A DNA stretch of 64,000 bases from Candidatus Latescibacterota bacterium (GTDB lineage Bacteria > Latescibacterota > UBA2968 > GCA-2709665): positions 1,600,001-1,664,000 of the forward strand of contig OZ244744.1 of NCBI GenBank assembly GCA_965219455.1, in the 5' to 3' direction. Under the pieces are notes generated by a model that was given only the letters and a program-made list of their open reading frames with translations, was not told the DNA's origin and did no database searches. Both the position numbers and the translations under genes were made by a program. This document shows positions 18,842-25,847 of the stretch, one piece after another. Position 1 is the stretch's first letter. Every line of letters starts with the position of its first letter.

Positions 18842-20519
18842 TCGATACGATTTGAACTCGTCCAGGATCCTATTTCTGGCCGGATTGTTTGCCTTTTTTG
18901 TTTGTTTTCTGTTCTATCCGCTCTGGTATGCTTTTGTGCAAGCCCTGTGGGTGAACGGAGAAATCTCGCTCGTGTATTTTGAGCTGATGGCAGGCAATCC
19001 GGTCTATCGGGAGATGATCCTGAACAGTTTCCGCCTGGGCATGTTCACCACGATTGCAACGACACTCCTGAGCCTGCCCATCGCATTATTGCTGGTACGG
19101 TACGACTTCAGAGGAAAAAACATCCTCAATGGTCTGATCCTTGTGCCCATGGTCCTCCCGCCGTTCGTGGGCGCGATCGGGATGAAACAGATGTTCGCCC
19201 GATTCGGATCCATCAACCTGTTGTTGCTCAAACTGGGAATCGTCGATCAGCCGATCGATTGGTTCGGTAGCGGGTTTACGGGTGTGGTCATTCTGCAGGT
19301 ATTGCACCTCTATCCCATCATGTTCCTTAACGTGGCGGCGGCCCTGTCGAATGTCGATCCGAGCCTCGAAGAGGCTGGCCGCAATATGGGCGCCAGCGGT
19401 TTCAGGCTGTTTCGAACCGTAACCTTTCCGCTGATGTTACCAGGCTATTTTGCCGGCGCGACTATTGTCTTTATCTGGGCGTTTACCGACCTGGGAACAC
19501 CGCTGATTTTCAACTATCGGCAGGTGGTCATGGTCGAGATATTCAACGCCATTTCAGACATAAACGAAAATCCCATGGCATACGCGCTCGTGGTTTTCCT
19601 GTTATTGCTGACTATGCTGTTTTTCTACCTGTCCAAAATGCTGCTGGGCAAGAAACGGTACGAAATGGTGGCGCGGGGACACGTGGGATCCACAACGCGT
19701 CGCGCTTCGACCAGGACGACCGCACTAATCTACACGATTATGATTTCGTTGACGGCCATCGCGCTGATCCCTCACATGAGCGTTTTTCTGACCTCGATTT
19801 CCGAGCGCTGGTTCATGTCGATTTGGCCCCAGGAAATCACAGGCAAGTACTATCCGCTGGTATATCGGCACCCGATCGCCGGCCCCAGTATTACAATGAG
19901 CCTGATGTTGAGTACGTTAAGCACGATTTGCGATGTGACACTTGGCATCGCCATTGCCTATCTGCTTGCCCGCACCCATGTCCCCTTCAGGGGCGCGCTG
20001 GATGCGGTTGCGATGTTGCCGCTGGCACTGCCGGGTCCGGTGCTGGCCTTCGGATATCTGGCGGGATTTTCGGGCACCTTCCTGGATGCAAGACACAATC
20101 CCGTGCCACTGCTTGTGATCGCATACGCGGTGAGACGGCTGCCATATATGGTTAGATCGGCCTACGCCGGGTTCCAGCAAACCAGTGTCGCCCTCGAGGA
20201 AGCCGCCCGGAATATGGGCGCTTCACCCTTTCGGACGACCTTACAGATTACCTTTCCGCTCATTCTGGCCAATCTGGTCGCTGGGGCCATTCTCTGTTTT
20301 TCTTTCGCCATGCTGGAGGTCAGCGATAGCCTGATACTTGCGTTGAAGGCGCAATATTACCCCATCACAAAAGCAATCTACGCGCTGATGGGCAGGATCG
20401 CGGATGGTCCATATATTGCCAGCGCAATGGGCATGCTGGGAATGCTGCTTCTTATGCTCAGCCTTTTTTTGGCCGGACGGTTCCTGGGCCGGCGAATGGG
20501 AGAGCTTTTCCGCGCTTAG
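18822..20519 (+). CDS. ABC transporter permease (FbpB-like, two TM modules)
   Basis: Two EAA motifs (LEEAGRNMGAS, LEEAARNMGAS); many TM helices. Confidence 0.93.
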   Translation: MKTALLDRYDLNSSRILFLAGLFAFFVCFLFYPLWYAFVQALWVNGEISLVYFELMAGNPVYREMILNSFRLGMFTTIATTLLSLPIALLLVRYDFRGKNILNGLILVPMVLPPFVGAIGMKQMFARFGSINLLLLKLGIVDQPIDWFGSGFTGVVILQVLHLYPIMFLNVAAALSNVDPSLEEAGRNMGASGFRLFRTVTFPLMLPGYFAGATIVFIWAFTDLGTPLIFNYRQVVMVEIFNAISDINENPMAYALVVFLLLLTMLFFYLSKMLLGKKRYEMVARGHVGSTTRRASTRTTALIYTIMISLTAIALIPHMSVFLTSISERWFMSIWPQEITGKYYPLVYRHPIAGPSITMSLMLSTLSTICDVTLGIAIAYLLARTHVPFRGALDAVAMLPLALPGPVLAFGYLAGFSGTFLDARHNPVPLLVIAYAVRRLPYMVRSAYAGFQQTSVALEEAARNMGASPFRTTLQITFPLILANLVAGAILCFSFAMLEVSDSLILALKAQYYPITKAIYALMGRIADGPYIASAMGMLGMLLLMLSLFLAGRFLGRRMGELFRA

Positions 20520-20538
20520 GAAAAGGAGATTGCCGAAG

Positions 20539-21474
20539 ATGGTCTATGTCGTTTTGATTGTTCTCTTGATTCTCGTGGTTATTTTCCGTCTGACGCGTGG
20601 AAAGGGTTTGAGAAGCGAGGTACATCCTGAGGGCGACGAAGCACTGGCGGCAGAAGTGGCAGATATGGTGATCGATGGGCGGCAGGAATACCTGCCCGCC
20701 GCAAGCCATCCTATATTGGGTGGCGTGCTACGCGAATTGCTTGGCCGCCTCGGGACAGACGCGGAACAGGTACTGGTCAGACGGGGATTTACACACGACG
20801 CCGGGGCAATGCGCACCAATGAAGAAAAATCCCGGAATCTGAGAGTGTTTGATCCGGCGGAAAACATGATGCAGATTGTCGAGCGGGCGTTGCTGGTGGG
20901 AATTCAGGTGGCGCGTGTGGACGACGACTACGCCGGTGTGGGCGATGACCACCTGGACCTGGAGGCACTGGCACGCAAAGCCGAAGCCATTGAATTGGAT
21001 CTGTTCGGAGAGGGGAAGCGCGATCGTTACGGTTTTTACGGCAAGGCTGCGCTGGTGCTCCAGGATATGCTTCAAGATGAAAAAGAAGCATCTCGCAGGG
21101 AGGTCCTTCGAGGGATGCTGGAGATGGTCGACGACCGGATCGATGCCTTCCAGACGGAACTGGACAGGTCGATGGCGTACATCCCCGAGCCGGATACGTT
21201 GAGGTGGGGAGACAAGAGAGATCGGCAGTTATATTACTTCAAGATGGGCGTAACGAATTCGCTGCGACGAAGCGGACAGTTGGACAGCCTGGGCCATCTC
21301 TATCGGTACAGGGGGGTAAATTACGATGTCCTGGAAGCATACGATCTGGCTGCCCAGGAATGTCCGCAACTCTTCGCGGCCGATGTGATTGGGATCGACG
21401 GGTTGCTTCAGATGGGGTCCGGTGAGGTCCGGACGCTGGCCCGGCAGGCCCTGCCGGAGGGCGGGAGAACCTAG
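20539..21474 (+). CDS. hypothetical membrane-anchored protein
   Basis: RBS AAGGAG; N-terminal TM MVYVVLIVLLILVVIF; stop TAG lies inside the CTAG of repeat copy B. Confidence 0.7.
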   Translation: MVYVVLIVLLILVVIFRLTRGKGLRSEVHPEGDEALAAEVADMVIDGRQEYLPAASHPILGGVLRELLGRLGTDAEQVLVRRGFTHDAGAMRTNEEKSRNLRVFDPAENMMQIVERALLVGIQVARVDDDYAGVGDDHLDLEALARKAEAIELDLFGEGKRDRYGFYGKAALVLQDMLQDEKEASRREVLRGMLEMVDDRIDAFQTELDRSMAYIPEPDTLRWGDKRDRQLYYFKMGVTNSLRRSGQLDSLGHLYRYRGVNYDVLEAYDLAAQECPQLFAADVIGIDGLLQMGSGEVRTLARQALPEGGRT

Positions 21475-21538: not shown

Positions 21539-21646
21539 GATGAAGGACGGAGTGGATAAAATGTCACGGTTGTCGATTGAGCCCGGGGAGATCGAATGCG
21601 AGGTTCTGTTTGACAGGATCTGACGACCGGCAACGGGGGGCCGAAT

Positions 21647-21681
21647 TCGAGGGGACGTAAATCGAGGGGACGTAAATCGAG
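21647..21681. repeat. 15-bp tandem repeat (2.3 copies)
   Basis: TCGAGGGGACGTAAA x2 followed by TCGAG. Confidence 0.8.
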
Positions 21682-21720
21682 AGATGGGAGATGAAGGCTT
21701 CTCTTGCAGACTAACGAGCG

Positions 21721-21750
21721 AAGCCGCCACGCAGCGCGTGGCGGCTTTTG
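21721..21750. terminator. intrinsic terminator hairpin between convergent genes
   Basis: AAGCCGCCACGC-AGC-GCGTGGCGGCTT followed by T residues on the plus strand. Confidence 0.75.
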
Positions 21751-21755
21751 TATTC

Positions 21756-22034
21756 CTATTTCCCCCCTCGGGACTTTTCGAAATAGGGGCGGACGCGTAC
21801 GATGACGTCCTCATCCAGTTTGCATTGTGACACGATTTGCGTGAACTTTTCCGCCGGCAAGCCGAGTTCCTCCAGGAACTTCCGGTCGGCGGGTCAGGGG
21901 TAGATATAGTCGCCGATGTTGTTCCGCAGCATCGCCCGGGCTTTGTCCGTAATCCGCGGCAGCCAGGGGATACCGCCCATGGCAAGCGTTCGCCCGCGGG
22001 GACGGAATTCAATGGACTCGTTCATGGCATCCAT
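21756..22034 (-). CDS. DUF5069-like small protein with in-frame UGA (codon 47); candidate selenoprotein, 92 aa
   Basis: RBS AAGGAG 8 nt before ATG; MDAMNESIEFRPRGRTLAMGGIPWLPRITDKARAMLRNNIGDYIYP[TGA]PADRKFLEELGLPAEKFTQIVSQCKLDEDVIVRVRPYFEKSRGGK*; family-like sequence continues past the TGA; absent from the ORF track because each half is under 60 aa. Confidence 0.8.
21851..21893 (-). promoter_or_regulatory. putative bacterial SECIS element immediately 3' of the UGA
   Basis: C-CCGCCG-A-CCG-GA-AGUUCC-[UGGA]-GGAACU-CGG-CUUGC-CGGCGG; 19 nt between UGA and apical loop, G at loop position 2. Confidence 0.7.
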
Positions 22035-22121
22035 CTGGTCGGCTCCTTTCCGTATAGGGGTTGAATGTCAAAAAATACACTTAACAGCGTACGAAAGCAA
22101 ATGGATATTGCGATCAGAAGC

Positions 22122-22703
22122 TTAATCGCCTCGGCCCACGTTCTGGTAAATGGATAACGAATTGCCTCCGTAGGTCTTCCGTATGCGCAACGAAAGGTGC
22201 CGGGTGGCGGCGGGTAACTCCAGGTCTGCGAAGTGTTGAATGAGGATATGGCCCGACGGAGCAACGAGCGCGGATCCGCTCAGACGGGTGAGCATCGCGA
22301 GGGCGAACGGAACGTCGTCCAGTTGAAGTTGGTATGGCGGATCCACGTATATGACGTCAAAAAGCCGTTGTTCCGCCTCCAGCAGCGGCAGGAGTCTTTC
22401 GGCGGGCTGATTCAGCAGGCGGATCTGTTTTTCCGCCCCCCAGTCCTTCAGCAGCATTGAAATAAAGCGGTGCCTGCGACGATTCGGTTCGTTCAGCAAC
22501 ACCCGGGCGCCCCGGCTGTACGCCTCGAGACCGATCTGACCTGAACAGGAAAAGAGGTCGAGAAAGTGGAGATGGTCGAGTCTGGTACCCAGAATCGTAA
22601 ATGCGGACTCTTTGATCCTTCCCGGCGTTACGCGGGCGTTGCCGTGTTTTCTGACGTCAAAGGGAATGGTCCTGCCTTTGAGTTTGCCCGTGATGATACG
22701 CAT
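22122..22703 (-). CDS. rsmD: 16S rRNA m2G966 methyltransferase RsmD family
   Basis: MRIITGKLKGR, FLDLFSCSGQIGLEAYSRGA, DVIYVDPPY, KTYG. Confidence 0.88.
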   Translation of the reverse strand: MRIITGKLKGRTIPFDVRKHGNARVTPGRIKESAFTILGTRLDHLHFLDLFSCSGQIGLEAYSRGARVLLNEPNRRRHRFISMLLKDWGAEKQIRLLNQPAERLLPLLEAEQRLFDVIYVDPPYQLQLDDVPFALAMLTRLSGSALVAPSGHILIQHFADLELPAATRHLSLRIRKTYGGNSLSIYQNVGRGD

Positions 22704-22850
22704 GAGAACAAAAGGAGAAGTTAAAGAGCCGTTCGGCGTTGGCGCCCCGGCGACTGAATGACGCGGCACGGCGGACGCGATCGAATTCAGGACGAGGCTG
22801 AAGAAATTCAGGAGCGAATCAATCGGACGAATGCGCAGCCTGTTTCCGCG

Positions 22851-25847
22851 TCAATACCCCTCCAGCCGGCTCAGGTCGGCAATGCCGTCCGCAAGTGAGG
22901 CGATACGCTGAACCAGAGCAAGACGGGCCCCGCGAAGCACAGGATCTTCGTCCATTACCAGGACCTCCTCGAAGAAGCTGTTAATGGGGCCGCGCAGGTC
23001 GGCCAGCACATTTTCCAGGGTATCGATCTTATCTTCGGAACGGTCCATCGTGCAGCGGGCGTCCCTCCAATTCTGATGTAATCTACGTGAGGAAGGGGTT
23101 GGATCCGCGTCCGGATTCAATGGATGGATTTCATCGAGGTTCCGTACAATACGCTTGCACCGCGCGTATGCATGAAGCCTTTCCGTCCAGTTTTCCGAAC
23201 GAACCATCTGATCGAGGCCTTCCACAATGGTGCGGAGCCCGAATGGGTCGTCGCATCCACCGGCAAGGGCGGCCTCGACCACGTCGTGGCGAAAACCCTC
23301 CTCTTTCAGTTGTACGCCCAGACGGCGCAGGATGAACGTATAAGCGTCGATCAATCGATCGGCATCGATTCGGATAGGCAGCTCCGTTGCCGCGGCCTCC
23401 AGGCCTTTCTTCAGGGAGAAGTGACAGCGTTTCCCGATAAGCAGTGCCAGAAGGCCCAGCGCGTCTCGACGCAGCCCATAGGGGTCGGCGGTCGACCGGG
23501 GCTTGATTCCAGCGCAGAACAGCCCGGCCAGGCTGTCCAGCCGGTCGGCTACCGAGACCGCAAATCCGGATTCGCTTGCCGGCAGCATATCGCCGGGAAA
23601 CCGGGGAAGGTAGTGTTCCTGGATGGCCATAGCCACTGCGTCGGTCTCCTTGGACATCAAGGCGTAGTAGCGGCCCATCACGCCCTGAAGGGTCGTCATC
23701 TCGACGACCATACCGGTGGCCAGATCCGCTTTGCTAAGCCGGGCCGCTCTTTTCGCTGTTTTCGTACCGCCTTCCGTCAAACCCAGATCGGGGGCGACCA
23801 CGGTGAGCAGTCGCTCGATTCGCTCGCTCTTGTCCCTAACGGATCCCAGTTCGTCCTGGTAGGTGAGCGTATCCAACCTCGGCAGGTAGGCTTCCAGGGG
23901 CTTTCGGCCATCTTCCCGGTAGAAGAAGGCGGCGTCTGCATATCTGGCGCGAACGACATTCTCGTTCCCGCGAATGACGGGGCCTGGATCGGCCGGCCGG
24001 CCATTGGAAACGGCCACGAAATAGGGCAGCAGCAGGCCTGTCTGCGGGTGTACTACGGGGAAGTAGCGCTGGTATTTCTTGAGTACGGTGACCAGAACTT
24101 CCTGCGGTAGTTCAAGATGGACTTCATCGAAACCGCCGCGCAACGCGAAGGGCGCTTCGACCAGATCGGTAACTTCGTCCAGCAGATCCGGATCTTCCTG
24201 TACGCTACCGCCCACCACCCGAGCCTGTTCGAGAACCTGTTTCCAGATGGTTTCTCTTCGCCGATCGCGGTTGACGATCAGACCGCGTTCCTCCATTTGT
24301 AGATGATAGGTGTCGGCGGATTCCAGCTGGACGGGCGGAGCACCCTCGGGCCTCGATCCATGGCTGGTACGTCCACTCCGGATCCGGGCGAAGGGGAACG
24401 GGATAATCTGGTTTCCAAAAAGGGCGACAATCCAGCGGAGAGGACGGGGATACGCGAAACCGTCGGAGTCCCAGCGCATGGTTTTCGGGAAGTTCAAGCC
24501 CGCGATCAGTTCGGGAAGGAGTTTCGTCAGGATTTCCTGTGTTTCGAGTCCGGACTCGTGGCGCCGGGCGTAGACGTATTCAATGCCCTTGTCGTCTTTC
24601 CTGTGTTCCACTGAACCTGGAGAGACGCCCTGACCGCGACAGAATCCTTCAAGGGCGCGTGTGGGTTTTCCCTCGCCGTCGTAGGCGGCCTTGACGGCCG
24701 GTCCGCGCACTTCGCGTTCCCGGTCCGTCTGCCGGCCCTCGAGGTTCCGGACGCTGGCGACAAGCCGTCTGGGTGTACCCGTTATTTCGACGCCGTCATA
24801 TCCGAGCCTCTGCTCTCGAAGAAGCTCGGGCAGGCGACTCTCGAGCTGTTCGATGCCCGACCGCACGTCGTGGGGCGGAAGTTCTTCGGATCCGATCTCC
24901 AGAAGGAGGTCGGCCCGATCGCAGGATTTAAAGTCCCGTCCAGGTTCCGGGGCAGCTGCGTCCCCGGTTTTCCTGATCAGGGGGTGGCCGGACGCCTCAC
25001 GCTGTCTGACAAAGCGTTCGGCGACCTGTCTGGCGAGATCGCGGATCTGCGCGAAGTACCGCGCACGTTCGGTAACGCCTATGGCCCCCCGTGTGTCCAG
25101 CAGGTTGAAGGTGTGGGAGCACCGCAACACGTAGTCATGGGCGGGAATAACGAGATCGCGGTCTATGGCGGCTCCGGCTTCTTCGAGAAAGAGATTGAAC
25201 ATGGTCTGCAGGCGCTTGACGTTTGCGTAGTAAAACTCGTAATTGCAATACTCCACTTCCTGCTGCCTGAGAATGTCGCCGTAGGTGACCTGCTCATTCC
25301 AGCGTAGCTGCCAGACTTCGCGCACATCCTGAACATACATGGCAATTCGTTCCATGCCGTAGGTGATTTCCACGGGAACGGGGTCGAGCGGCAGGCCTCC
25401 AGCCTGCTGGAAGTAGGTGAACTGGGTGATTTCCAGGCCATCGAGCCAGACCTCCCAGCCCAGGCCCCACGCGCCCAGCGCGGGCGATTCCCAGTTGTCT
25501 TCCACGAAACGGATGTCGTGCTGCCGGCGATTCAGACCCAACGCTTCCAGGCTGTCCAGGTAGAGTTCCTGGGGGTTGCCCGGCTCGGGTTTGAGAACAA
25601 CCTGGTACTGCGTGTGCATTTGCATCCGGTTCGGGTTCTCGCCGAACCGGCCGTCGTCGGGGCGGAAGCTGGGTTCAACGTAGGCTACGTTCCAGGGCTC
25701 GGGTCCCAGCACGCGAAGCGCGGTGCTCGGGTTCAGCGTACCCGCGCCCACCTTTTCGCTAAGCGGCTGCCAGATGATACACCCGTTATCCGCCCAGAAT
25801 CGTTCAAGACGAAGAATGAGTTCCTGGAAGGTAGATGTGGCGTTCAC
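22851..25847 (-). CDS. glyQS: glycine--tRNA ligase, fused alpha/beta subunits
   Basis: Alpha motifs ([45 protein letters not shown]) continue in frame into beta motifs ([25 protein letters not shown]). Confidence 0.96.

What the first reader, a model, noticed from the sequence alone, without database searches (positions are those of the whole stretch)
21756..22034. Hidden candidate selenoprotein: DUF5069-like gene with in-frame UGA at the expected Cys and an adjacent SECIS-like hairpin
Seen in sequence: this apparent intergenic gap has an RBS (AAGGAG), ATG 22034, 46 codons, TGA at 21894-21896, 45 more sense codons to TAG 21756-21758, then a hairpin. Product: MDAMNESIEFRPRGRTLAMGGIPWLPRITDKARAMLRNNIGDYIYP-U-PADRKFLEELGLPAEKFTQIVSQCKLDEDVIVRVRPYFEKSRGGK. 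Right after the UGA the mRNA can fold CCGCCG/CGGCGG, CCG/CGG and AGUUCC/GGAACU with a UGGA loop 19 nt downstream. Established: the bacterial SECIS consensus has the apical loop 16-37 nt from the UGA with a G in the first two loop positions, which this fits. From memory of the family, DUF5069 proteins read roughly 'PR...GG..WLPR..DKARA...G.Y.Y.CP.D..FL..LG', so the UGA would replace that Cys. Inference: a Sec-containing member of an uncharacterised family, implying a redox or metal-binding role for the site. I do not know of this family being described as a selenoprotein, but cannot check the literature.
Basis: partly seen in the sequence, partly recalled or inferred. Interest (0 to 1): 0.92.

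Follow-up and report, generated by a model that had tools for sequence, protein, structure and literature searches.

The report
Unannotated selenoprotein of the DUF5069 family
A small gene that looks cut short by a stop codon almost certainly encodes a 92-residue selenocysteine protein of an uncharacterised family, which marks that one residue as the family's functional centre.

Summary
Minus-strand ORF 22034..21756 has an in-frame TGA at 21894-21896. Read through, the product passes the Pfam DUF5069 cutoff (53.3 bits against 27).

- **Machinery:** the genome has selA, selB and tRNA-Sec in one cluster, plus a TGA-containing selD.
- **Conservation:** the TGA sits at the same column in 81 of 96 scored orthologs from one Latescibacterota class; the other 15 have Cys. 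In a metagenome sample it is 67 TGA and 11 Cys of 79 loci. Every full-length database homolog has Cys there.
- **SECIS:** a 6-bp hairpin with a UGGA loop 19 nt after the UGA is present in 81 of 81 Sec forms and intact in 0 of 15 Cys forms. It shows compensatory changes: pair 18-31 is GC in 37 rows and CG in 36.
- **Translation:** codons after the TGA evolve as coding sequence. TGA is otherwise the commonest stop.
- **RNA:** RNA-library contigs span the TGA.

Public gene calls stop at 46 aa. The family is absent from a May 2026 table of 119 prokaryotic selenoprotein families. Function is unknown. The fold is not thioredoxin-like and matches only PDB 3omd. This is a new selenoprotein family using the ordinary bacterial mechanism.

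The parts
21756..22034 (-). Complete coding sequence of a 92-residue DUF5069-family selenoprotein (ATG 22034-22032, Sec codon 47, TAG 21758-21756).
   Evidence: Searches give the sequence and translation. Pfam PF16798 at 53.3 bits against a cutoff of 27; the third codon position is the most variable downstream of the TGA, and the ORF continues 42-49 codons in 81 of 81 Sec forms.
22043..22048 (-). Shine-Dalgarno-like AAGGAG, 8 nt upstream of the ATG.
   Evidence: Read directly.
21894..21896 (-). In-frame UGA read as selenocysteine (residue 47), in the motif D-Y-I-Y-P-U-P-A-D.
   Evidence: Same column is TGA in 81 and Cys in 15 of 96 orthologous loci. In metagenome loci it is 67 TGA and 11 Cys of 79. 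It is an invariant Cys in 20 of 20 full-length database homologs.
21865..21880 (-). Conserved apical SECIS hairpin: 6-bp helix (nt 17-22 with 27-32, counting the U of UGA as 1) and a UGGA loop (21871-21874) that starts 19 nt after the UGA.
   Evidence: UGGA loop in 81 of 81 Sec forms and five core pairs in 80 of 81; no Cys form (0 of 15) has both; pair 18-31 is GC in 37 rows and CG in 36; pair 17-32 is AU 37, GU 26, GC 10; 0 of 500 shuffles reach the covariation score. One search gives the published bSECIS constraints.
21851..21892 (-). Extended SECIS stem in this genome (lower helices CCGCCG/CGGCGG and CCG/CGG). It is lineage-specific.
   Evidence: MFE of nt 5-46 is -19.1 kcal/mol; the lower helix is only 66% paired across 73 distinct orthologs.
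21723..21745 (-). Terminator-like 10-bp G+C-rich hairpin with a 3-nt loop, 10 nt after the TAG stop. The T tract is weak.
   Evidence: Read. The consensus terminator scan did not report it.
22122..22769 (-). rsmD-like methyltransferase gene, the conserved upstream neighbour on the same strand. This is context only; no functional link is shown.
   Evidence: Cons_hypoth95 at 107.6 bits. TIGR00095 at 101.6 bits, below its 117.5 cutoff; found next to the DUF5069 gene in 58 of 70 related loci, at 42-83% identity.

Best explanation
The 279-base gap holds a real, expressed gene for a 92-residue selenoprotein of the DUF5069 family.

**How the UGA is decoded.** The hairpin that begins 14 nt after the UGA is a 6-bp helix capped by a UGGA loop 19 nt downstream. 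It acts as a bacterial SECIS element. SelB carrying Sec-tRNA(Sec) binds it and inserts selenocysteine at codon 47 instead of terminating. The hairpin lies inside the reading frame, in the codons for K-F-L-E-E-L, so it also constrains the protein sequence. This part is supported by comparative evidence but has not been shown biochemically.

**What the protein does.** This part is inferred, at roughly 0.5. Sec47 sits at the N-terminal cap of a helix in the invariant motif Y-x-Y-P-U-P-A-D. No second conserved Cys lies nearby. It most likely acts as a single reactive selenolate nucleophile in a redox or sulfur/selenium-transfer reaction and is recycled by an external thiol. The fold is small, mostly helical and not thioredoxin-like.

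**History.** Cys versions are the common state across the wider family. Within this bacterial class Sec is the dominant state and has been replaced by Cys several times, and the hairpin then decays.
For: - **Family:** PF16798 at 53.3 bits against a cutoff of 27. The solved homolog 3omd has E 1.4e-11, with Cys aligned to the UGA.
- **Machinery:** selA 562 bits, selB 366.6 bits and tRNA-Sec 73.6 bits lie adjacent at C1:4374106-4377628. selD scores 359.8 bits and has one in-frame TGA. An FdhA-like gene has TGA in the motif CSRA-U-HAP.
- **TGA conservation:** 35 of 37 full-length orthologs in 41 related genomes carry the TGA. So do 104 of 120 best matches in 168 genomes of the phylum, down to 37% identity. 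Of 97 loci examined as DNA, 96 were scored: 81 TGA and 15 Cys at one column. In the independent metagenome scan, 67 of 79 loci have TGA, 11 have Cys and 1 is cut short.
- **Sec/Cys pair:** Cys is invariant in 20 of 20 full-length database homologs. It fills 114 of 169 domains of the 150 best representatives.
- **SECIS:** the UGGA loop is in 81 of 81 Sec forms and the core pairs in 80 of 81, against 0 of 15 Cys forms with both. Compensatory changes and both controls support it: 93.2% of cells pair against 21-64% when the partner is slid, and 0 of 500 shuffles reach the covariation score. It meets the published constraints of a 3-9 nt loop, a 4-16 bp stem, G in loop position 1-2, 16-37 nt spacing and MFE <= -7.5.
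- **Same design at other Sec sites:** selD and the FdhA-like gene of this genome have a CC/GG-closed stem and a GG-containing loop 17-18 nt after their UGA.
- **Translation past the UGA:** entropy per codon position is 0.97/0.76/1.58. Within the genus, synonymous against nonsynonymous codon differences are 713/392 downstream. They are 1/0 in the six hairpin codons, against 542/50 in the 25 codons upstream.
- **No reassignment:** TGA ends 17 of 38 long ORFs in the window.
- **RNA:** one contig in each of 4 metatranscriptome runs of one study covers 21766-22037 across the unchanged TGA.
- **Structure:** the AF2 model has pLDDT 85.5, with residue 47 directly before helix 48-57.
Against: - No biochemical evidence exists: no selenium labelling and no peptide.
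- The hairpin's folding energy alone is not exceptional (z -0.91). The apical helix alone scores only -6.5 kcal/mol, so flanking pairs are needed to reach -7.5.
- The G-C to C-G flip coincides with one deep split between families, so it may be a single event.
- The hairpin lies in conserved codons, so part of its conservation could reflect protein constraint. The near-absence of synonymous change argues against that being the whole story.
- Two TGA-bearing metagenome loci (L241, L244) have a different loop and fewer pairs.
- The RNA evidence comes from assembled contigs of one study. It shows neither strand, nor ends, nor translation, and such libraries can contain DNA.
- For the function: the Cys is replaced by Ser or other residues in 43 of 169 domains. 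It is absent from two of the three repeats of this genome's own triple-domain paralog. The family's core activity may therefore not need it.
- No CxxU/UxxC motif is present, and no fold relative of known function was found.
Confidence: 0.92

Rival explanations
1. The UGA is recoded, but not to selenocysteine. The hairpin would stimulate near-cognate read-through (Trp, Cys or Arg) or some other recoding event, giving a full-length protein without selenium.
For: Only sequence-level evidence is available, and none of it identifies the inserted residue. Two database gene calls already show W at this position (P0009, P0033). I read these as TGA=W translation-table artefacts.
Against: The complete Sec machinery is present, and selD and an FdhA-like gene carry TGA at their canonical Sec positions. 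The column alternates only between TGA and TGC/TGT in 96 genomes, never TGG or CGA. That is the signature of Sec/Cys exchange. The hairpin matches the SelB-type SECIS geometry, and the geometry is shared with selD and FdhA in the same genome.
Confidence: 0.04
2. The UGA is an ordinary stop. The gene would encode only a 46-residue peptide, as public annotation has it, and the downstream 45 codons would be untranslated.
For: Gene callers produce 46-aa products in several public genomes (P0027-P0031). Some termination at UGA is expected whenever selenium is limiting.
Against: The downstream frame stays open for 42-49 codons in 81 of 81 genomes. It shows the codon-position pattern of coding sequence and aligns residue by residue with the C-terminal half of Cys-containing homologs. 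The Pfam match spans residues 12-82 across the UGA. No conserved restart codon follows the TGA.
Confidence: 0.03
3. The TGA is a sequencing or assembly error, or a recent inactivating mutation (a pseudogene).
For: None beyond the bare presence of a stop codon in a single sequence.
Against: The same TGA is present in 81 independently assembled genomes and in 67 metagenome contigs. It is also present in RNA-library contigs of 4 runs. Purifying selection acts on both halves.
Confidence: 0.005
4. A rival for function only: Sec47 is a metal or metalloid ligand, for example in a site formed between two subunits, rather than a redox nucleophile.
For: Several of the 119 listed selenoprotein families are metal-binding (Table 1 of PMC13188914). 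A single conserved Cys/Sec with invariant Asp, Tyr and Arg/Lys residues nearby in sequence could build a binding site. The PDB entry 3omd holds two chains.
Against: There is no second conserved Cys or His in the alignment. No metal-binding family or fold match was found. Nothing was tested directly.
Confidence: 0.2

Closest known systems
Pfam DUF5069 (PF16798), including the solved but uncharacterised protein PDB 3omd from Leptospirillum rubarum
   Same: The sequence matches above the curated cutoff. The predicted fold superposes on 3omd (TM 0.77 on the query, rmsd 1.6 A over 78 columns). The motif Y-x-Y-x-C-P-x-D is shared.
   Different: This protein has Sec where the others have Cys. It is a short form covering only profile positions 4-74 of 133 and lacks the C-terminal part present in 3omd (145 aa). 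No function is known for any member.
Bacterial SECIS elements (consensus model of bSECISearch; E. coli fdhF is the classical case, recalled)
   Same: It sits immediately downstream of the UGA inside the coding region. It has a small apical loop with G in position 2, a 6-7 bp upper stem and 19-nt spacing, all within the published ranges. The design matches the selD and FdhA-like SECIS of the same genome.
   Different: The loop is UGGA rather than the GGUC or GGUCU seen in this genome's selD and FdhA-like genes. The apical helix is nearly invariant in sequence across a whole class, because it overlaps the conserved codons F-L-E-E.
Other computationally predicted small DUF-type selenoproteins (DUF1858, DUF166, DUF523, DUF3179, DUF1573 in Table 1 of PMC13188914)
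   Same: The evidence is of the same kind: a Sec/Cys pair, TGA-containing orthologs, a bSECIS and unknown function.
   Different: The family is different (PF16798 is not in that table). There is no CxxU/UxxC-type motif; the Sec-related motif is Y-P-U-[PGA]-A-D. The support here is unusually broad: 81 genomes and 67 metagenome contigs.
Thioredoxin-fold selenoproteins (Trx, Grx, Prx, GPx, SelW-like)
   Same: In those proteins a reactive Sec/Cys sits at the N-terminus of a helix (recalled). The model places residue 47 in that position here.
   Different: The fold is not thioredoxin-like: Foldseek against the PDB finds only 3omd at E < 1. There is no resolving Cys two or three residues away.

Membership tests
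Pfam DUF5069 (PF16798) | HMM score above the curated gathering cutoff | tested here: met
   53.3 bits against 27, E 4.1e-14. The six-frame genome search gave 48.3 bits across the TGA.
Pfam DUF5069 (PF16798) | Full-length coverage of the 133-position domain model | tested here: not met
   Only profile positions 4-74 are matched. This is a short form, as are the 86-124 aa homologs.
Pfam DUF5069 (PF16798) | Same three-dimensional fold as a solved member | tested here: met
   The AF2 model has pLDDT 85.5. Foldseek hits 3omd_A with E 3.7e-4, TM 0.77 and rmsd 1.6 A.
Bacterial selenoprotein gene | In-frame TGA aligned with a conserved Cys in homologs (Sec/Cys pair) | tested here: met
   Invariant Cys in 20 of 20 full-length homologs. 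Of 96 orthologous loci, 15 have TGC/TGT and 81 have TGA at the same column.
Bacterial selenoprotein gene | TGA-containing orthologs in other Sec-using organisms | tested here: met
   104 of 120 best matches in 168 genomes of the phylum. 67 of 79 metagenome loci.
Bacterial selenoprotein gene | Sequence conservation and coding signature downstream of the TGA | tested here: met
   Codon-position entropy is 0.97/0.76/1.58. The ORF continues 42-49 codons in 81 of 81.
Bacterial selenoprotein gene | Sec machinery (selA, selB, selC, selD) in the same genome | tested here: met
   All four score above their curated cutoffs.
Bacterial selenoprotein gene | TGA is not generally a sense codon in this organism | tested here: met
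   TGA ends 17 of 38 non-overlapping ORFs of 200 aa or more in the window.
Bacterial selenoprotein gene | Selenium physically incorporated at the UGA position | not testable with these tools
   This needs 75Se labelling or mass spectrometry.
Bacterial SECIS element (bSECISearch model, as given in PMC13188914 Fig. 2 legend) | Apical loop of 3-9 nt with at least one G in its first two positions | tested here: met
   The loop is UGGA, with G at positions 2 and 3, in 81 of 81 Sec forms and in 58 of 60 metagenome Sec forms.
Bacterial SECIS element (bSECISearch model, as given in PMC13188914 Fig. 2 legend) | Upper stem of 4-16 bp | tested here: met
   Six pairs (17-32 to 22-27) are essentially always formed, and a seventh (16-33) forms in 39 of 73 rows.
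Bacterial SECIS element (bSECISearch model, as given in PMC13188914 Fig. 2 legend) | 16-37 nt between the UGA and the apical loop | tested here: met
   19 nt, with no length variation in the 76 aligned sequences.
Bacterial SECIS element (bSECISearch model, as given in PMC13188914 Fig. 2 legend) | MFE of -7.5 kcal/mol or lower | tested here: met
   nt 12-35 gives -8.7 and nt 5-46 gives -19.1 in this genome. The bare 18-nt hairpin alone gives -6.5, with a range of -6.2 to -9.9 over the 81 Sec forms.
Bacterial SECIS element (bSECISearch model, as given in PMC13188914 Fig. 2 legend) | Structure maintained by compensatory substitutions | tested here: met
   Pair 18-31 is GC in 37 rows and CG in 36. 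Pair 17-32 is AU 37, GU 26, GC 10. 0 of 500 shuffles reach the covariation score, and the slid controls pair in 21-64% of cells against 93.2%.
Bacterial SECIS element (bSECISearch model, as given in PMC13188914 Fig. 2 legend) | Binding by SelB and dependence of read-through on the element | not testable with these tools
   This needs a reporter assay or a binding assay.
Thioredoxin-fold redox selenoproteins | CxxU / UxxC (or TxxU) redox motif | tested here: not met
   The motif is Y-P-U-P-A-D, with no conserved Cys, Ser or Thr at +/-3.
Thioredoxin-fold redox selenoproteins | Thioredoxin-like fold | tested here: not met
   The model has a beta-hairpin and four helices. Foldseek against the PDB finds only 3omd at E < 1.
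Already curated NCBI selenoprotein families (NF-numbered models) | Match to any NCBIfam model | tested here: not met
   0 families at E <= 1 in NCBIfam release 20.0.

The most novel reading that the evidence does not exclude
DUF5069 short forms would be a previously unrecognised class of single-selenol protein with its own non-thioredoxin fold. In this reading the protein is not a general antioxidant. It is a dedicated selenium- or sulfur-transfer or redox-switch partner of specific proteins. The leads are two lineage-specific, conserved same-strand gene pairings: an rsmD-like rRNA methyltransferase in families f1/f2, and an unknown, possibly kinase-like protein in family f4. Sec would be the ancestral state of the whole Latescibacterota class. 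A second, taxonomically unplaced marine-type subgroup (M-x-L-D-W-K-P-R...) would carry the same SECIS, implying either an old origin or horizontal spread of the Sec form together with its hairpin.
Probability: 0.12. Interest if true: 0.8.

Novelty: new member of a known kind. Interest (0 to 1): 0.58.

Why it matters
- **Annotation.** The gene is currently called as a 46-residue stub or missed altogether in dozens of public genomes. Correct annotation restores a conserved 92-residue protein.
- **A new family.** It adds a family to the prokaryotic selenoproteome that is absent from the most recent compilation of 119 families. It also shows that Latescibacterota, an uncultured phylum, use selenocysteine in at least three proteins.
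- **A handle on function.** Sec/Cys exchange is one of the few sequence-only signals that single out a functional residue. Here it marks the Cys in Y-x-Y-P-C-P-x-D as the likely active site of a domain of unknown function with 867 representative clusters. That domain already has a crystal structure (3omd), so its function is now directly testable.
- **RNA constraining protein.** This is a clean example of an RNA element shaping protein sequence. F-L-E-E is nearly fixed in Sec forms and drifts in Cys forms.

Tried and rejected
- **Folding energy as evidence.** The z-score of -0.91 is not informative, so I replaced it with comparative analysis.
- **Lower SECIS helix.** Only 66% of cells pair across orthologs, so I do not claim it as conserved.
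- **Rfam scan of 21700-22100.** Only sub-threshold chance hits appeared and no SECIS family matched. I do not know whether Rfam holds a model for this kind of element.
- **Terminator scan.** It did not flag the hairpin after the TAG.
- **Fold search for function.** It found nothing except 3omd. The protein atlas, queried with the natural Cys homolog P0002, returned only DUF5069 clusters scoring 0.87-0.89, below the tool's 0.9 line.
- **Gene context as a clue to function.**
  - The rsmD-like neighbour is conserved in families f1/f2.
  - Family f4 has a different partner, which has no Pfam or NCBIfam family.
  - That partner's homolog in this genome lies elsewhere.
  - No consistent functional partner emerged, and I ran no complex prediction.
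- **The convergent 356-aa ORF** is not homologous to the f4 partner.
- **RNA coverage.** The laid RNA contigs cover only 21766-22037 of the 21600-22800 stretch. Absence of cover over the flanks is not evidence of anything.
- **Literature.**
  - 'DUF5069' gave 0 papers and 'PF16798' gave 0.
  - 'Latescibacter' with 'selenocysteine' gave 4 papers, 3 of them listed. The one I opened, as passages only, merely lists a Latescibacteria MAG.
  - 'new selenoprotein families' with 'bacteria' gave 8 papers.
  - A four-term search for the groundwater-MAG study mentioned in the review found only the review itself.
  - Of PMC13188914 I read section 7 parts 1-2, which include the whole of Table 1, plus passages. 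Of PMC12013277 I read passages only.
Full report
**1. The observation**

On the minus strand an AAGGAG (22043-22048) precedes an ATG at 22034. After 46 sense codons comes TGA (21896-21894), then 45 further sense codons, then TAG (21758-21756). A perfect 10-bp G+C-rich hairpin follows.

That energy is not unusual for this composition: z = -0.91, and 36 of 200 shuffles fold at least as well. So the single sequence is suggestive but not decisive.

**2. Family**

With Cys in place of Sec, the read-through product scores 53.3 bits against Pfam DUF5069 (cutoff 27). The match runs over residues 12-82, across the UGA. It covers only positions 4-74 of the 133-position model, so this is a short form. 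No NCBIfam model matches.

One solved structure belongs to the family. It is 3omd, an uncharacterised protein of Leptospirillum rubarum, with E 1.4e-11 by sequence and 3.2e-18 by profile. It has Cys aligned to the UGA, in the motif Y-x-Y-N-C-P-L-D.

**3. Sec machinery and genetic code**

The window lies in a 5.84-Mb single-contig genome.
- selA (562 bits), selB (366.6 bits) and tRNA-Sec (73.6 bits) lie side by side at C1:4374106-4377628.
- selD (359.8 bits) itself carries one in-frame TGA.
- An FdhA-like molybdopterin enzyme carries TGA in the canonical C-S-R-A-U-H-A-P context.
- TGA is also the commonest ordinary stop: it ends 17 of 38 ORFs of 200 aa or more in the window, including the adjacent GlyQS gene.

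The organism therefore uses the standard code plus selenocysteine.

**4. Conservation of the TGA, and the Sec/Cys pair**

| Sample | Loci or matches | TGA | Cys or no stop |
|---|---|---|---|
| Full-length orthologs in 41 related genomes (two families, nine genera) | 37 | 35 | 2 |
| Best matches in 168 genomes of the phylum | 120 | 104 | 16 |
| Loci examined as DNA (97 fetched; one long-form Cys locus, L135, dropped by my motif filter) | 96 | 81 | 15 (10 TGC, 5 TGT) |
| Metagenome contigs (one further locus is cut before the column) | 79 | 67 | 11 |

- In the phylum-wide search, identity falls as low as 37%. The hits are confined to four families of one class, and the ten other families gave 0 of 36.
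- In the DNA set, no other codon occurs at the column.
- Record titles of close relatives name them Candidatus Latescibacterota, with a few labelled Gemmatimonadota.
- All 20 full-length homologs from the protein database have Cys in the invariant motif Y-x-Y-P-C-P-A-D.
- Other database entries stop exactly at ...Y-[IV]-Y-P, or carry W. These are the expected artefacts of calling TGA as stop or as Trp.
- The metagenome sample includes a distinct subgroup, M-x-L-D-W-K-P-R..., that is absent from the genomes searched.

**5. The wider family**

A profile search of 1.84 billion representatives finds 867 proteins at E <= 1e-3. In the 169 domains of the 150 best hits, the column holds:

| State at the column | Domains |
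|---|---|
| Cys | 114 |
| Ser | 28 |
| Other residues | 14 |
| Trp | 1 |
| Protein ends there | 11 |
| Internal gap | 1 |

Among single-domain proteins, 108 of 123 have Cys. The genome's own 431-residue paralog has three DUF5069 repeats. It keeps the Cys only in the middle repeat, and the other two read Y-G-[DE]-D-S-G. The Cys is therefore characteristic of a large subfamily but is not universal.

**6. The SECIS element**

I count the U of UGA as nucleotide 1.
- All 81 Sec forms have a UGGA loop at nt 23-26.
- 80 of 81 have all five core pairs, 18-31 to 22-27. The exception is L104.
- None of the 15 Cys forms has both. L128 keeps the stem but has a UACA loop. L047, L048 and L129 keep UGGA but have broken pairs.

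On the 76 unique Sec sequences (73 distinct rows), the helix 16-22/27-33 pairs in 93.2% of cells, against 21-64% when the 3' partner is slid. Pair 18-31 is G-C in 37 rows and C-G in 36. Pair 17-32 is A-U in 37, G-U in 26 and G-C in 10. None of 500 shuffles reaches the covariation score.

The G-C to C-G flip follows the split between families f1-f3 and f4, so it may be one event. The 17-32 variation recurs within f4, and again as U-A in the metagenome subgroup.

The element meets the published bacterial SECIS constraints, which I read in the Fig. 2 legend of PMC13188914:

| Constraint | Published range | Here |
|---|---|---|
| Apical loop length | 3-9 nt | 4 nt |
| G in the first two loop positions | at least one | G at position 2 |
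| Upper stem | 4-16 bp | 6-7 bp |
| UGA-to-loop spacing | 16-37 nt | 19 nt |
| MFE | <= -7.5 kcal/mol | -8.7 for nt 12-35 and -19.1 for nt 5-46 (-6.5 for the bare hairpin) |

The two other Sec sites of this genome have the same design. selD has ...UCC-GGUC-GGA... with the loop from nt 21. The FdhA-like gene has ...GCC-GGUCU-GGC... with the loop from nt 22.

In the metagenome sample, 58 of 60 scored Sec loci have the UGGA loop and 0 of 11 Cys loci do. Two Sec loci, L241 and L244, are atypical.

**7. Translation continues past the UGA**

- Downstream codons +11 to +36 show entropy of 0.97, 0.76 and 1.58 bits at codon positions 1, 2 and 3.
- The frame stays open for 42-49 codons in all 81 Sec forms.
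- Within the window's genus there are 713 synonymous and 392 nonsynonymous codon differences downstream.
- In the six hairpin codons there is 1 synonymous and 0 nonsynonymous difference. The 25 upstream codons have 542 synonymous differences. That points to an RNA-level constraint on top of the protein-level one.
- Accordingly F-L-E-E is nearly fixed in Sec forms but varies in Cys forms, for example to F-L-Q-K, F-L-R-E and F-L-D-E.
- No conserved restart codon follows the TGA.

**8. Evolution**

A maximum-likelihood tree of 93 non-identical rows needs at least 4 Sec/Cys switches (4-5 in bootstrap trees; well-supported branches force 2). Two Cys forms are nested inside an otherwise all-Sec genus and still carry a one-mismatch relic of the hairpin. 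This is a recent Sec-to-Cys replacement. The root is arbitrary, so the direction of the deeper switches is not established.

**9. Expression**

Four metatranscriptome runs of one study each hold a single 250-271-nt contig lying on 21766-22037. These contigs have 0-1 differences and keep the TGA unchanged. One variant, at 21883, changes CGG to CAG, the state seen in sister species. These are assembled contigs from RNA libraries. They show that both halves sit on one molecule in those libraries, and they show nothing about translation.

**10. Structure and function**

The AlphaFold2 model has pLDDT 85.5 and pTM 0.75. It shows a short beta-hairpin (18-23) and four helices, with residue 47 immediately before helix 48-57. 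Foldseek against the PDB finds only 3omd (E 3.7e-4), so the fold is not thioredoxin-like. No second Cys is conserved.

From this I infer a single reactive selenolate at a helix N-cap that acts as a nucleophile in a redox or sulfur/selenium-transfer reaction. This rests on general knowledge that Sec replaces Cys almost only at catalytic redox sites. It is not a test. A metal-ligand role is the main alternative.

Gene context gives no consistent clue.
- An rsmD-like gene precedes the selenoprotein gene in 58 of 70 related loci of families f1/f2.
- In family f4, 12 of 16 loci instead have an unknown 336-524-residue protein ending at the start codon. It has no Pfam or NCBIfam family.

**11. Novelty**

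- No paper in the searchable library contains 'DUF5069' or 'PF16798'.
- Table 1 of the May 2026 review PMC13188914 lists 119 prokaryotic selenoprotein families and subfamilies with their domain identifiers. I read it in full. It has no PF16798 entry and no Y-P-U-P-type motif.
- The nine families newly reported by deep-Sep do not include it (passages of PMC12013277).
- The NCBIfam scan found nothing.
- Public gene calls truncate the protein.

Three caveats apply. A groundwater-MAG survey cited in the review is not in the library.

**12. Verdict**

This is a genuine, previously unannotated selenoprotein gene, and by the searches above the first evidence that DUF5069 has Sec-containing members. 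The insertion mechanism is the ordinary bacterial one, so the novelty lies in the family and not in the mechanism.

Noticed in passing
L162:2884-3990 and homologs in L164-L169, L171, L173, L174, L176, L177; own-genome homolog at G000 C1:1183126-1184130 (L178:1135-2565): In family f4, 12 of 16 loci have a homologous unknown 336-524-aa protein ending at the DUF5069 start codon on the same strand, in Sec and Cys forms alike. It has no Pfam or NCBIfam family. Its motif D-Y-[HN]-A-R-N-I-V-x-N resembles a kinase-like catalytic loop (recalled, untested). In the window's genome the homolog lies between a DUF362 protein and an AIR-synthase-related (PurM/SelD superfamily) protein.
   Followed up: partly
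G000 C1:2958476-2959714 (L058:1060-2355): A 431-aa protein made of three tandem DUF5069 domains. Only the middle repeat keeps the Y-N-C-P-I-D motif, and the other two read Y-G-[DE]-D-S-G. Similar 430-480-aa frames occur in the related genomes.
   Followed up: partly
G000 C1:3407174-3408097 (selD, L015) and C1:5416997-5417731 (FdhA-like, L179): Two further selenoprotein genes in the same genome, each with an in-frame TGA followed by a CC/GG-closed hairpin with a GGUC or GGUCU loop. The full selenoproteome of this uncultured lineage was not surveyed.
   Followed up: partly
window 22851-25847 (-): The glycyl-tRNA synthetase alpha and beta subunits are fused into one 998-aa protein (PF02091 plus PF02092). 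In the window's genus it lies directly upstream of the rsmD-like gene and the selenoprotein gene.
   Followed up: no
window 21651-21680 (read on the - strand): A 15-nt unit occurs twice in tandem, followed by a partial third copy. It lies in the intergenic space between the selenoprotein gene's terminator-like hairpin and the convergent 356-aa ORF.
   Followed up: no
window 20404-21474 (+): The convergent 356-aa ORF has no Pfam or NCBIfam family. It is conserved at 69-88% identity next to the selenoprotein gene throughout the window's genus.
   Followed up: partly
L241 and L244 (metagenome contigs): Two TGA-bearing homologs lack the UGGA loop. Their loops are UCGA and UUGA, with 3 and 4 of 6 pairs. 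They may use a different SECIS register or may be decaying genes.
   Followed up: no
L184, L186-L200, L204, L206, L221, L222, L258 (metagenome contigs): A separate, more A+T-rich subgroup (N-terminus M-x-L-D-W-K-P-R) also carries the TGA and the same GUUCC-UGGA-GGAAC hairpin. It was not found in the 168 Latescibacterota genomes searched, and its taxonomy is unknown.
   Followed up: partly
P0009 and P0033: These public protein entries for orthologs show W at the Sec position. Some pipelines evidently translated these contigs with a TGA=Trp table.
   Followed up: no
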